DNA of 64,000 bases from an uncultured delta proteobacterium (GTDB lineage Bacteria > Myxococcota_A > Polyangia > Fen-1088). The notes under the pieces were generated by a model. That model was not told the DNA's origin and did not search any database. It saw nothing but the letters and a program-made list of their open reading frames with translations. How positions within the stretch are numbered: the first letter of the stretch is position 1; the number at the start of each line of letters is the position of its first letter. The position numbers and the translations under genes were made by a program. Positions 34,596 through 37,816 of this stretch are shown here, piece by piece. The stretch lies in assembly GCA_963796685.1 (NCBI GenBank), contig CAWCMR010000011.1, positions 64,001 through 128,000 on the forward strand. Direction: 5' to 3'.

Positions 34596-36126
34596 TTCTG
34601 CGGCTATCGCGGGATTGGGGGTAGAGCGAGGCGCCAGCTACGCACGTGCGCGCTCCGATCCCCTCGCCCCGCGCAAGGGCTAGGGTGAGGGGCCAGGGCA
34701 CGCTCTCGCATGGCCGAACCCCTCACCCGACGCGCTTCGCGCGTCGACCTCTCCCCGCTTCGCGGGGCGAGGTGAATCTTCCGCGGCCACGCGCCTGGGG
34801 TCCGGCCAGCTACGTACGTGCGCGCTCCGATCCCCTCGCCCCGCGCAGCGGGGAGAGGGCTAGGGTGAGGGGCCAGGGCACGCTCTCGCATGGCCGAACC
34901 CCTCACCCGACACGCTTCGCGCGTCGACCTCTCCCCGCTTCGCGGGGCGAGGTGAATCTTCCGCGGCCACGCGCCTGGGGTCCGGCCAGCTACGTACGTG
35001 CGCGCTCCGATCCCCTCGCCCCGCGCAGCGGGGAGAGGGCTAGGGTGAGGGGCCAGGGCACGCTCTCGCATGGCCGAACCCCTCACCCGACGCGCTTCGC
35101 GCGTCGACCTCTCCCCGCTTCGCGGGGCGAGGTGAATCTTCCGCGGCCACGCGCCTGGGGTCCGGCCAGCTACGTACGTGCGCGCTCCGATCCCCTCGCC
35201 CCGCGCAGCGGGGAGAGGGCTAGGGTGAGGGGCCAGGGCACGCTCTCGCATGGCCGAACCCCTCACCCGACGCGCTTCGCGCGTCGACCTCTCCCCGCTT
35301 CGCGGGGCGAGGTGAATCTTCCGCGGCCACGCGCCTGGGGTCCGGCCAGCTACGTACGTGCGCGCTCCAATCCCCTCGCCCCGCGCAGCGGGGAGAGGGC
35401 TAGGGTGAGGGGCCAGGGCACGCTCTCGCATGGCCGAACCCCTCACCCGACACGCTTCGCGCCTCGACCTCTCCCCGCTTCGCGGGGCGAGGTGAATCTT
35501 CCGCGGCCACGCGCCTGGAGTCCGGCCAGCTACGCACGTGCGCGCTCCAATCCCCTCGCCCCGCGCAAGGGCTAGGGTGAGGGGCCAGGGCACGCTCTCG
35601 CATGGCCGAACCCCTTACCCGACACGCTTCGCGCGTCGACCTCTCCCCGCTTCGCGGGGCGAGGTGAATCTTCCGCGGCCACGCGCCTGGGGTCCGGCCA
35701 GCTACGCACGTGCGCGCTCCAATCCCCTCGCCCCGCGCAGCGGGGAGAGGGCTAGGGTGAGGGGCCAGGGCACGCTCTCGCATGGCCGAACCCCTCACCC
35801 GACGCGCTTCGCGCGTCGACCTCTCCCCGCTTCGCGGGGCGAGGTGAATCTTCCGCGGCCACGCGCCTGGGGTCCGGCCAGCTACGTACGTGCGCGCTCC
35901 GATCCCCTCGCCCCGCGCAAGGGCTAGGGTGAGGGGCCAGGGCACGCTCTCGCATGGCCGAACCCCTCACCCGACGCGCTTCGCGCGTCGACCTCTCCCC
36001 GCTTCGCGGGGCGAGGTGAATCTTCCGCGGCCACGCGCCTGGGGTCCGGCCAGCTACGTACGTGCGCGCTCCGATCCCCTCGCCCCGCGCAAGGGCTAGG
36101 GTGAGCATCTGTGTTCCTAGTCAAGG

Positions 36127-37077
36127 TCAAATCTCCGTGGTTTGCCAGCGCGAGTTAGAGCGCAACATGGCGTTGAGGATGGTGAGCAGCTTGTGCATAC
36201 AGGCGACGATGGCGACCTTCTTGAGCTTTCCTGCGGCGACTAGCCGAGCGTGGAATCTGGCGATGACTGGGTTGAAGCGTATGGCAGCTAGGGTGGCCAT
36301 GTAGAGGACGTTGCGGACTTCGGTGCGGCCGCCCCAGATGATGCGGCGGCCGCGCAGGGTGCCGCTGTCCCGGTTGAGTGGAGCAACACCGATGAGGGCT
36401 GCGATCTGCTTGCGGTTGAGGGTTCCAGTCTCAGGGGCATGGGACAGGATGGTGCGAGAGAGGACGGGGCCAGCTCCTGGAACGCTTTGGATGATGTCGT
36501 CCTTGGCTTTCCAGACCGAGGAATTGCCGATGGCCGTGTCGATGTCGTTGTCCACCTCGTCGAGCTGCTTTTCGAGGTAGGAGATGGTCCTGCGGATGGC
36601 CCTCTGCACGCGCTTGGAGGGAGGGTCAGCGCTGAGACGGTTTTTCTCGGCAGTGATCATGTCGACCACCTGCCTGCGCCTGGCGAGAAGGGCGGCAAGC
36701 TCCTGGGTCTCTGCGTCGACAGGCGGGCGGACGGGTGGCCGTATTCGTTCGGCGAAAAGAGCGATCATGGCGGCGTCCAGGGCATCGGTCTTCGCGAGAC
36801 AGCCGTTGGCCTTGGCGAAGTCGCGAACGCGTCTGGGGTTGACGACGACAGCGGGCAGGTTGGCAGCGAGGAGCGCCGCAAGCACGCGTCGTTCGAGTCC
36901 ACCGGTGGCCTCAAGAACGATGAGGGTGACGTTCAGGGCGGCCAACTCTTTGCAAAGAGCGCGCACCGTGTTGTCTTGATTGGGGGTGGACCAGGCTCTT
37001 TTGGCCGGCAAGACATGGACGTCGAGCGTGGCCTTGGAGACGTCGATACCTACGAATGTGTCAGCTGTTGGTGTCAC
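36127..37077 (-). CDS. IS110 DEDD recombinase/transposase
   Basis: Translation identical to 10674-11624. Confidence 0.95.
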
Positions 37078-37089
37078 GGGCTCCTTTCG

Positions 37090-37345
37090 CGAAGGACTTC
37101 TGCTCTTGGTATGCCCAGCCTTGCGGAGTATGCGGGCTCGAGGCCCTCTCATCTGTTCGGGCTGCTTGTGAAAGTCGACACGACGACCCTCGCTCACCCA
37201 CGGTCTTTGTGACCTGAGGGGCATCGGTCTGTCGTGCCGTTGAATCTCGTCGTGCTCCTTCGCCTTTGGGGGCGAGCGTAGCCCAGCTTTGCTGGGCGAA
37301 GCGAGGGGGGACCGGGGGACTGCGAGCGAGAGCGAGCCAGTCCCC
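37090..37345 (-). ncRNA. Predicted IS110 bridge RNA (ends approximate)
   Basis: Target loop GCCCCU (37217-37222) and GGGUGAG (37193-37199) around a GGUC/GACC hairpin; donor loop ACAGAUG (37150-37156) and AUAC (37128-37131) around a GGGC/GCCC hairpin; all match the real target and donor junctions. Confidence 0.8.
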
Positions 37346-37348
37346 CGT

Positions 37349-37354
37349 AAGATA
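37349..37354 (-). promoter_or_regulatory. -10 box (TATCTT) of IS110 circle-junction promoter; -35 (TTGACT) at 36119-36124
   Basis: Joining the ends gives TTGACT-N17-TATCTT. Confidence 0.7.
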
Positions 37355-37816
37355 CAAGGGGCCAGGGCACGCTCTCGCATGGCCGAACCCCTCACCCGAC
37401 ACGCTTCGCGCGTCGACCTCTCCCCGCTTCGCGGGGCGAGGTGAATCTTCCGCGGCCACGCGCCTGGGGTCCGGCCAGCTACGTACGTGCGCGCTCCGAT
37501 CCCCTCGCCCCGCGCAAGGGCTAGGGTGAGGGGCCAGGGCACGCTCTCGCATGGCCGAACCCCTCACCCGACACGCTTCGCGCGTCGACCTCTCCCCGCT
37601 TCGCGGGGCGAGGTGAATCTTCCGCGGCCACGCGCCTGGGTCCGGCCAGCTACGCACGTGCGCGCTCCGATCCCCTCGCCCCGCGCAGCGGGGAGAGGGC
37701 TAGGGTGAGGGGCCAGGGCACGCTCTCGCATGGCCGAACCCCTCACCCGACACGCTTCGCGCGTCGACCTCTCCCCGCTTCGCGGGGCGAGGTGAGTCGG
37801 CCGAGGCGGTTCTCCT

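What the first reader, a model, noticed from the sequence alone, without database searches (positions are those of the whole stretch)
36104..37358. IS621-like IS110 with a readable bridge RNA programmed against the host REP family
Seen (element strand): target ctggcccCTcaccc and circle-junction donor acagatgCTtgtat, with core CT. The left end holds a loop with GCCCCU (left target + core) and GGGUGAG (7-nt reverse complement of core + right target). A second loop holds ACAGAUG (left donor) and AUAC (right donor). Joining the ends creates TTGACT-N17-TATCTT. Established: E. coli IS621 uses the same layout, a CT core and a similar donor, and also targets REPs. Inference: this is an active, natural bridge recombinase with a new target specificity and a long right-target guide. 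The two copies encode identical proteins, suggesting recent movement.
Basis: partly seen in the sequence, partly recalled or inferred. Interest (0 to 1): 0.8.

Follow-up and report, generated by a model that had tools for sequence, protein, structure and literature searches.

The report
Bridge-RNA insertion sequence in soil bacterium
This is a working-looking copy of a known kind of jumping gene (IS110 family) that carries its own guide RNA, and that RNA matches the short repeat sequence in which all seven copies in this genome sit.

Summary
Window 36104-37358 (minus strand) is a 1255-bp IS110-family element bounded by CT cores. It has a 282-nt non-coding left end, a 21-nt right end and an intact DEDD/Ser recombinase gene.

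The genome (a 7.3-Mb MAG) holds 7 copies that are 100% identical. All 7 have CACCC on the right; 6 have GCCC and 1 has ACCC on the left.

The left end folds into the two-internal-loop bridge-RNA architecture. In 21 relatives, 20 of 24 pairs show compensatory changes. The loops carry GCCCCU and GGGUGAG (target) and ACAGAUG and AUA..CAAG (donor).

In relatives the guides change together with their own flanks (0 of 20,000 permutations for each of the left and right target guides). The split promoter across the joined ends is conserved.

- The 7-nt right target guide is the norm in this clade.
- The same guide pair occurs in a Methylovirgula element.
- No RNA or circle was shown.

Extras:
- A roughly 100-nt 5' extension of the RNA.
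- A group II intron inside one copy.
- Left-end relics that break at the CT of the guide-encoding DNA (4 of 8).

The parts
36104..37358 (-). Whole IS110-family element including both CT cores (1255 bp; 1253 bp if one CT is counted as target)
   Evidence: 6 full copies plus 1 intron-split copy, all 100% identical, with the same ends
37357..37358 (-). Left CT core
36104..36105 (-). Right CT core
37359..37365 (-). Left target half CTGGCCC; only GCCC (37359-37362) matches the guide
   Evidence: GCCC in 6 of 7 copies, ACCC in 1 of 7
36099..36103 (-). Right target half CACCC
   Evidence: 7 of 7 copies
37349..37356 (-). Right donor TGTAT (37352-37356) overlapping the -10 box TATCTT (37349-37354)
36106..36124 (-). 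Right end: -35 box TTGACT (36119-36124) and left donor ACAGATG (36106-36112)
37261..37346 (-). 5' extension of the RNA: three hairpins (37314-37346, 37281-37297, 37261-37274), shared with L004 and in part L003, with compensatory changes
37176..37239 (-). Target-binding loop module. Outer stem 37226-37239 with 37176-37188. Left target guide plus core GCCCCU 37217-37222. Inner hairpin 37202-37214. Right target guide GGGUGAG 37193-37199. Handshake CG 37191-37192.
   Evidence: guide assignment
37113..37162 (-). Donor-binding loop module. Outer stem GCCC 37159-37162 with GGGC 37113-37116. Left donor guide ACAGAUG 37150-37156. Inner hairpin 37134-37146. Right donor guide AUA..CAAG within 37120-37131. 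Handshake G 37119.
36127..37077 (-). Recombinase gene: GTG start, AAAGGAG at 37081-37087, 316 codons plus stop. PF01548 plus PF02371. In the numbering of the 315-aa query, D11, E55, D97, D100 and S237 align with IS621 D11, E60, D102, D105 and S241.
10651..13980 (-). Second copy in the window, 100% identical, split between element positions 57 and 58 by a 2075-bp group II intron (11849-13923, + strand)
45216..45260 (-). 45-nt left-end relic
34633..37740 (.). Tandem array of units about 180 bp long, in which the element sits. There are 10 free exact target sites on the minus strand, 8 on one side of the element and 2 on the other. The upper limit (about 37740) is approximate.

Best explanation
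This is an autonomous IS110-group insertion sequence, the group with a long left end that encodes a bridge RNA.

Inferred mechanism, by analogy with IS621:
- The element excises as a circle.
- Joining the right and left ends through one CT builds a sigma-70-type promoter (TTGACT, 17 nt, TATCTT).
- That promoter transcribes an RNA of about 240 nt from the left end.
- After a 5' extension of about 100 nt, the RNA forms two stem/internal-loop/hairpin modules.

First module (target recognition):
- GCCCCU reads the bottom strand of GCCC+CT.
- GGGUGAG reads the top strand of CT+CACCC.
- Together they specify an 11-bp target split 4+2+5.

Second module (donor recognition):
- ACAGAUG reads the left donor.
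- AUA..CAAG reads the right donor TGTAT plus the core.

The nucleotide after each right guide fits the handshake rule. C after GAG would pair with the last donor base G, and G after CAAG with the last target base C.

The DEDD/Ser recombinase then exchanges strands at CT and places the element into GCCC|CT|CACCC. That motif is shared by several repeat families of the host.

Shown here: the anatomy, the target sites of all copies, the conserved structure, and guide-flank covariation in relatives.

Inferred: transcription, circle formation and current activity.
For: Protein:
- PF01548 (2.7e-23) and PF02371 (9.5e-17).
- Matches the ISCro4 chain (3e-31) and the IS621 chain (1.2e-26), with all five catalytic residues aligned.

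Copies and targets:
- 6 full copies plus 1 intron-split copy, all 100% identical over 1255 bp.
- Right flank CACCC in 7 of 7; left flank GCCC in 6 of 7 and ACCC in 1 of 7.
- The 99%-identical copy in another MAG also sits in GCCC|CT|CACCC.

Structure (21 relatives):
- RNAalifold leaves the guide segments in internal loops.
- For my 24-pair architecture, 88.1% of cells are paired, against 33-50% when partners are slid. 20 of 24 pairs have changes on both sides. 0 of 500 shuffles reach the observed values.

Guides covary with flanks:
- Left target guide against left flank in 14 loci: mean run 5.0 against 2.8 off-diagonal; 0 of 20,000 permutations.
- The left-donor-guide 7-mer is found exactly at the right end, next to the core, in 19 of 21 loci.
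- Right target guide against right flank in 17 loci: 6.4 against 2.75; 0 of 20,000.

Promoter:
- TTGACN at 17 nt from TATNNN in 12 of 16 loci that have both ends.
- No sigma-70-like site in the integrated context.

The handshake and discontiguous right-donor-guide rules come from PMC11208158 (passages).
Against: - No direct evidence of RNA, circle or transposition.
- The laid runs were contigs and gave no end-to-end joint.
- The assembly holds no end-to-end junction.
- In the single-sequence MFE the two target guides are partly paired with each other, and the fold is only modestly better than shuffles (z -1.94).
- The left target guide matches the real targets over only 4+2 of 9 positions.
- Rfam has no matching family on the RNA strand. 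The only hit is a sub-threshold one to sX15 on the opposite strand.
- The second handshake position of the donor loop does not fit.
Confidence: 0.9

Rival explanations
1. The copies are a fossil family. The element once used a bridge RNA but no longer moves, and the identical copies reflect gene conversion or assembly collapse rather than recent transposition.
For: No circle junction was found in the assembly or in the laid contigs. The genome is a MAG of 88.6% completeness and 6.48% contamination, and repeats in such assemblies can be consensus-collapsed. One copy is disrupted by an intron and 8 left-end relics exist.
Against: The 7 copies lie in 7 different flanks with precise CT boundaries. 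The ORF is intact with all catalytic residues. The guides, handshake bases and split promoter are all intact. Near-identical copies occur in different insertion contexts in soil metagenome contigs from other studies (loose ends at 36099 and 37362-37363).
Confidence: 0.07
2. The structured left end is only a 5' UTR or regulatory leader of the recombinase gene, and its matches to the flanks are coincidence.
For: Each guide match is short (6 and 7 nt) in a 64.6% G+C genome. The reading frame is open across the left end.
Against: Guide and flank change together in relatives at three independent interfaces. The architecture matches the solved IS621 RNA module by module. Guide-to-guide pairing is not conserved.
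Confidence: 0.02
3. On the side finding only: the left-end relics that stop at the guide-encoding CT are ordinary microhomology deletions and not products of the recombinase.
For: Two other relics (E and F) break at 6-7-nt similarities with the repeat flank. Relics B and G are mutated at the junction. In three other genomes only 1 of 5 partial left ends breaks at that CT.
Against: The internal site and the right junction share only 4 nt (CTCA). Meanwhile 95-117 direct repeats of 5-9 nt were available between the element and its right junction or flank. Yet 4 of 8 relics, in different flanks and two repeat families, break there. The left-donor-guide DNA, which lacks a CT, is never a breakpoint.
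Confidence: 0.3

Closest known systems
IS621 of Escherichia coli and its bridge RNA (Durrant et al. 2024, PMC11208160; Hiraizumi et al. 2024, PMC11208158; passages read)
   Same: - DEDD plus Ser recombinase.
- CT core and right donor TGTAT.
- RNA encoded in the left end, with a target-binding and a donor-binding internal loop.
- Left guides read the bottom strand and right guides the top strand.
- Discontiguous right donor guide ending in CAAG.
- Handshake bases, a promoter split across the joined ends, and insertion into extragenic repeats.
   Different: - The protein is only distantly related (E 1.2e-26).
- The 11-bp target is split 4+2+5 instead of 7+2+2. The right target guide is 7 nt against 4, and the left target guide is effectively 6 nt against 9.
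- The left donor is ACAGATG, and the left donor guide does not cover the core.
- Five bases, not two, are looped out of the right donor guide.
- The RNA has a 5' extension of about 100 nt with three hairpins, where IS621 has one 5' stem-loop (nucleotides before 34).
Relatives found here: L004 (Polyangia MAG, 66%), L003 (Burkholderiales MAG, 65%), L002 (Deltaproteobacteria MAG, 68%), L011 (Methylovirgula MAG, 56%)
   Same: Same RNA architecture, the same 7-nt right target guide, donor ACAG..G+CT+TGTAT and the same split promoter. L004, and in part L003, share the 5' extension. L011 has the same guide pair and sits in GCCC|CT|CACCC.
   Different: Other left target guides and targets, for example UAACCCU in L003 and UCGGCCU in L002. 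L002 lacks most of the 5' extension.
Rfam RF02234, sX15 of Xanthomonadaceae (Schmidtke et al., PMC3300014; passages read)
   Same: The model covers the same two-module region upstream of IS110-family genes. It scores 107-149 bits in 4 Xanthomonas or Stenotrophomonas loci and 29.4 bits here.
   Different: In all 5 cases the hit is on the strand opposite to the recombinase gene, so it is antisense to the bridge RNA. Here it is below the gathering score of 55. The paper reports sX15 and asX7 as complementary transcripts.
Half-match recombination and partial circles of IS110 elements (bioRxiv 10.64898/2026.08.31.748434, abstract only; 10.64898/2026.08.14.744561, abstract, section 9 and passages)
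   Same: Products that reuse one true terminus together with a recurrent internal endpoint. This is what the relics here look like.
   Different: In the parts I read, those papers do not name the DNA encoding the left target guide as an internal endpoint. Here the evidence is genomic relics, not circles.

Membership tests
IS110 family (IS110 group, bridge-RNA elements) | [quoted passage not shown] | tested here: met
   (both domains above cut-off). D11, E55, D97, D100 and S237 of the query align with IS621 D11, E60, D102, D105 and S241.
IS110 family (IS110 group, bridge-RNA elements) | No terminal inverted repeats, a short core dinucleotide at both junctions, a long left and a short right non-coding end | tested here: met
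   CT at both ends, left end 282 nt, right end 21 nt
IS110 family (IS110 group, bridge-RNA elements) | Promoter reconstituted across the joined right and left ends | tested here: met
   In silico only. TTGACT, 17 nt, TATCTT in this element, and conserved in 12 of 16 loci with both ends. No promoter-like site in the integrated state.
IS110 family (IS110 group, bridge-RNA elements) | Left-end RNA with two stem/internal-loop/hairpin modules | tested here: met
   20 of 24 pairs compensatory; 88.1% paired against 33-50% when slid
IS110 family (IS110 group, bridge-RNA elements) | Loop segments complementary to the target and donor halves including the core, and covarying with them | tested here: met
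   The left target guide matches only 4+2 positions in this element.
IS110 family (IS110 group, bridge-RNA elements) | Handshake bases that pair with the non-cognate DNA at position 7 | tested here: met
   Read from the sequence against the rule in PMC11208158. Both first positions fit. Of the second positions, one fits by a G-T wobble and one does not.
IS110 family (IS110 group, bridge-RNA elements) | Circular intermediate and expressed bridge RNA | not testable with these tools
   Only contigs were available.
IS621 subgroup (close relatives of IS621) | Close sequence relationship to the IS621 recombinase, and the 9-nt left / 4-nt right target-guide layout | tested here: not met
   (distant, E 1.2e-26). 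(layout 6 nt / 7 nt).
REP (repetitive extragenic palindromic) target | Short, abundant, palindromic extragenic repeat | tested here: inconclusive
   121 free exact sites fall in several repeat families. In the 180-bp unit the target is the right arm of a 10-bp inverted repeat. Neither the extragenic location of all sites nor an associated RAYT gene was examined.

The most novel reading that the evidence does not exclude
The DNA that encodes the left target guide is itself a recombination site. It is a perfect copy of 'left target + CT', so the recombinase-RNA complex can pair it with the true right junction (or, in the other direction, with the true left junction) and make partial products.

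That would explain the relics:
- In this genome 4 of 8 left-end relics end at that CT. Two of them read cleanly 'left-end positions 1-141, CT, CACCC', in two different repeat families.
- In a Dehalococcoidia genome, 1 of 2 relics of a 55%-identical element does the same.

Every bridge-RNA gene would then carry a built-in weak spot that shapes how these elements decay. It might also spawn small non-autonomous modules, leaving a natural footprint of the 'half-match' recombination recently described in vitro.
Probability: 0.45. Interest if true: 0.55.

Novelty: new member of a known kind. Interest (0 to 1): 0.4.

Why it matters
It adds one well-documented natural bridge recombinase from a soil MAG. 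Titles of related records name Deltaproteobacteria and Polyangia.

Its target logic can be read off the genome. There are seven occupied sites and 121 free exact sites, with a 4+2+5 split of the 11-bp target. The clade shows that a 7-nt right target guide is a stable natural design.

For genome-writing work it is one more orthologue to test, not a new principle.

The side observations could inform models of excision and off-target recombination if they hold up. These are breakpoints at the guide-encoding CT, a conserved 5' extension that a group II intron has invaded, and an Rfam family that is the antisense of a bridge RNA.

Tried and rejected
- **Rfam** (E-value mode on 35500-38000): no family on the RNA strand. 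The only hit was a sub-threshold one to sX15 on the opposite strand.
- **Single-sequence folding**: it recovered the outer stem and inner hairpin of the first module. It paired the two target guides with each other and did not recover the second module. The comparative structure was used instead.
- **Reads**: all 24 runs offered are Logan contigs. I laid 4 of the 24 (X1, X5, X15, X16).
  - No joint between the element's two ends was found.
  - The one joint listed (goes back 83 nt, one RNA contig, depth about 5) lies inside the 5' hairpin region. I do not interpret it.
  - Contigs from RNA libraries cover 37133-37282 and parts of the gene at 90-99% likeness. By the tool's own caution this does not show transcription.
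  - Contigs can show neither presence nor absence of a circle.
- **Assembly search** for the end-to-end junction: 0 occurrences.
- **Breakpoints in other genomes:**
  - G001: 1 partial copy, an internal-deletion derivative that keeps both ends.
  - G002 and G004: single copies, not informative.
  - G006: one full match plus one weak 61-nt match, which I did not inspect.
  - G003: 2 relics, one ending at the guide CT and one at the 5' edge of the loop.
  - G005: 2 partial left ends, neither ending at the CT and one at the 5' edge of the loop.
  - The generality of the breakpoint is therefore not established.
- **IS621 test dropped.** I looked for an E. coli relative on which to test the breakpoint in 5,426 genomes. 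I found ISEc32 (42% identical), but its right end in that record is cut by IS1 and I stopped there. I did not obtain IS621 DNA, so that test was not done.
- **Rows dropped before counts:**
  - One search used 14 of 21 aligned loci. Seven had no identifiable left boundary or lay at a contig edge.
  - One search used 17 of the 19 loci with an exact right-end hit. L022 and L033 end too soon after the core.
  - The 21 aligned loci were picked from the 30 of 66 tabulated loci, of the 80 fetched, in which a script matched the conserved donor-loop motif. Relatives without that motif (36 of 66) were not analysed.
- **Tools and files not available or not used:** Supplementary tables of Durrant et al. 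were closed, so I could not see whether this clade is already in their catalogue. I did not run the search for homologous proteins, structure prediction or complex prediction.
- **Print search on the breakpoint idea:** (terms listed there), plus passages of 10.64898/2026.08.14.744561. I saw no statement that the DNA encoding the left target guide is an endpoint. This is not proof of absence.
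Full report
**What is there**

Read on the minus strand, window 36104-37358 is a 1255-bp unit. It begins CT+TGTATCTT directly after ...CTGGCCC, and it ends ...ACAGATG+CT directly before CACCC.

It holds one gene, 36127-37077, with a GTG start three bases after AAAGGAG. The product carries PF01548 (DEDD_Tnp_IS110, 2.7e-23) and PF02371 (9.5e-17).

Against solved structures it matches the ISCro4 transposase (9t56, 3e-31) and the IS621 transposase (8wt6, 1.2e-26). 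In the IS621 alignment the query's D11, E55, D97, D100 and S237 fall on the residues that Hiraizumi et al. name as catalytic: D11, E60, D102, D105 and S241 (PMC11208158 passages; the PDB chain numbering is offset by two).

The non-coding left end is 282 nt and the right end 21 nt.

**Copies and targets**

The genome is a 7.31-Mb, 26-contig MAG with 64.6% G+C. It is 88.6% complete with 6.48% contamination.

blastn of the element against it gives 6 full-length hits at 100% identity. It also gives one copy, again 100% identical, that is split between positions 57 and 58. That split copy is the second one in the window, at 10651-13980.

All 7 copies have CACCC on the right. On the left, 6 have GCCC and 1 has ACCC. 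They lie in at least three repeat families that share this motif.

The exact 11-mer GCCCCTCACCC occurs 121 more times in the genome, against 17.6 expected from composition. It occurs 10 times in the window, against 0.10 in shuffles. All 10 are on the minus strand, in the roughly 180-bp tandem array that the element interrupts.

A 99%-identical copy in another MAG (L001) also sits in GCCC|CT|CACCC. A miniature derivative there (L082) sits in ACCC|CT|CACCC.

**The RNA**

The single-sequence MFE of the left end is -112.2 kcal/mol with z = -1.94. It finds a 13-bp outer stem and an inner hairpin around GCCCCU and GGGUGAG, but it pairs parts of those two segments with each other.

To decide between the alternatives I fetched 80 related loci. 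I aligned the two-module region of 21 of them, picked as described under Tried and rejected.

RNAalifold gives an outer stem, an internal loop and an inner hairpin, twice over, with the guide segments unpaired.

For a 24-pair version of that architecture:
- 88.1% of cells are standard pairs, against 69.3% in shuffles and 33-50% when the partners are slid.
- 20 of 24 pairs show changes on both sides.
- 0 of 500 shuffles reach any of the five measures.

The guide-to-guide pairs of the MFE are paired in 56% of cells. That is no better than the slid versions (up to 54.7%) and is reached by 13 of 500 shuffles.

**Guide assignment**

First loop:
- The 5' side carries GCCCCU, which equals left target GCCC plus the core.
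- The 3' side carries GGGUGAG, the reverse complement of core plus CACCC.

Second loop:
- The 5' side carries ACAGAUG, which equals the left donor.
- The 3' side carries AUACUCCGCAAG.

Relatives read AUU(U/C)GCAAG at this last place. In IS621 the right donor guide pairs discontiguously with two bases flipped out (PMC11208158). So the right donor guide here is AUA plus CAAG with five bases looped out.

The base after GAG is C, which would pair with the last donor base G and not with the last target base C. The base after CAAG is G, which would pair with that target C. This is the handshake arrangement described for IS621. Of the two second handshake positions, one fits by wobble and one does not.

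**Covariation with the flanks in relatives**

This is the strongest evidence that the matches are functional.

- *Left target guide.* In the 14 of 21 loci with an identifiable left boundary, the run of matches between the 9 nt before TGTAT and the 5' side of the first loop averages 5.0. For mismatched locus pairs it averages 2.8, and 0 of 20,000 re-pairings reach the observed sum.
- *Left donor guide.* The 7-mer read from the second loop is found exactly, followed by the core, downstream of the gene in 19 of 21 loci.
- *Right target guide.* In 17 loci the bases after that core match the 3' side of the first loop over 6.4 nt on average, against 2.75. Again 0 of 20,000 re-pairings reach it. One locus has a TT core that is matched by AA in the RNA.

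A 7-nt right target guide is thus the rule in this clade and not a peculiarity of this element. Durrant et al. already state that some orthologues have a longer right target guide than IS621 (PMC11208160).

The Methylovirgula locus L011 has the same guide pair and the same target halves. The specificity is therefore not unique either.

**Promoter**

TTGACT (36119-36124) lies 17 nt from TATCTT (37349-37354) once the ends are joined through one CT. The count comes from the sequence printed; the script's own regular expression reported an earlier TTGACC instead.

- TTGACN at the same 17-nt spacing is present in 12 of 16 loci with both ends.
- Three more have TTGAA there, and one has nothing.
- The integrated locus has no sigma-70-like site.

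**What is not shown**

No run with raw reads was offered. The four contig sets I laid gave no end-to-end joint, and the assembly has none. Contigs from RNA libraries cover part of the RNA region, but they cannot prove transcription. Activity rests on seven identical copies in seven different flanks.

**Comparison and novelty**

The element works like IS621 and meets every sequence-level criterion of the IS110 group. It is not a close relative of IS621.

Differences from IS621:
- The target is split 4+2+5.
- The left donor guide does not cover the core.
- The looped-out stretch in the right donor guide is larger.
- There is a 5' extension of about 100 nt with three hairpins. L004, and partly L003, share it with compensatory changes.

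These are variations within a family for which thousands of orthologues have been analysed. I rate it a new member of a known kind.

**Side observations**

(a) *Left-end relics.* Eight exist.
- Two read cleanly 'positions 1-141, CT, CACCC...' in two different repeat families.
- Two more have the same endpoint with small mutations.
- So 4 of 8 break at the CT of the DNA that encodes the left target guide.
- That internal site shares only 4 nt with the right junction, although 95-117 longer direct repeats were available.
- Two other relics do break at 6-7-nt similarities with the flank, and one is unexplained.
- In a Dehalococcoidia genome, 1 of 2 relics of a 55%-identical element also diverges right after its guide CT.
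- In two further genomes, 0 of 3 do.
- This fits the 'half-match' and 'partial circle' behaviour reported in two 2026 preprints, but it is not established.

(b) *Group II intron.* The insert in the second copy is a 2075-bp group II intron. It hits RF02001 and RF00029 and has a 554-aa reverse-transcriptase-like ORF with a YADD motif. It has 11 copies in the genome, each just after a hairpin. Here it lies after the second hairpin of the RNA's 5' extension, on the opposite strand.

(c) *Rfam sX15.* It hits Xanthomonas and Stenotrophomonas relatives at 107-149 bits, exactly over the two-module region but on the strand opposite to the gene. The original paper describes sX15 and asX7 as complementary transcripts with 10 homologues in S. 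maltophilia (PMC3300014). The Rfam family is therefore the antisense of a bridge RNA.

Noticed in passing
window 11849-13923 (+ strand); RT ORF 12128-13792: A 2075-bp group II intron (Rfam RF02001 at 79.7 bits, RF00029 at 46.6 bits). It is inserted antisense into the left end of the second IS copy, right after the second hairpin of the RNA's 5' extension. The genome has 11 near-identical copies, each placed just after a stem-loop. One of them sits at the same position in a left-end relic on contig C25.
   Followed up: partly
G000 C25:1109419-1109562, C8:212939-213083, C25:234099-234238, C25:1543315-1543396; also L091 (G003): Left-end relics that end at the CT of the DNA encoding the left target guide (4 of 8 in this genome, 1 of 2 in a Dehalococcoidia genome). 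The clean ones recreate a full GCCCCTCACCC site. This suggests that the guide-encoding DNA serves as a pseudo-end for the recombinase.
   Followed up: partly
L072:1309-1466, L074:1309-1466, L075:64-222, L080:1-133; window 37098-37249 (+): Rfam family sX15 (RF02234) matches the bridge-RNA region of Xanthomonadaceae IS110 elements on the strand opposite to the recombinase gene, so the family is the antisense of a bridge RNA. The source paper reports complementary sX15 and asX7 transcripts.
   Followed up: partly
window 34633-36091 and 37359 to about 37740: A tandem array of units about 180 bp long (8.2 copies on one side of the IS and about 2 on the other, 96% matches). Each unit holds a 10-bp inverted repeat whose right arm is the IS target. 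Long ORFs called across it on both strands are probably spurious.
   Followed up: partly
L082:1501-1680 (G001): A miniature derivative of the element in a related MAG. It has 127 nt of the left end joined to about 50 nt of the right end, with both termini intact, and sits in an ACCC|CT|CACCC site. It is a possible non-autonomous element.
   Followed up: no
G000 C10:5664-6131: A second, unrelated IS110-family gene in the genome (PF01548, 39.9 bits). Not examined.
   Followed up: no
L092 (G003) and L097 (G005): Two left-end relics in two unrelated genomes both stop right after the conserved CCG that closes the outer stem, at the 5' edge of the target-binding loop. This may be chance.
   Followed up: no
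window 30898-31206: A tandem repeat with periods of 39 and 78 bp (about 4-7 copies). Not examined.
   Followed up: no
plasmid collection: Relatives of this recombinase (about 48% identity) are annotated only as 'IS110 family transposase' on many Klebsiella plasmids; Klebsiella accounts for 1079 of the 2658 matching records. ISEc32 of E. coli plasmids is 42% identical.
   Followed up: no
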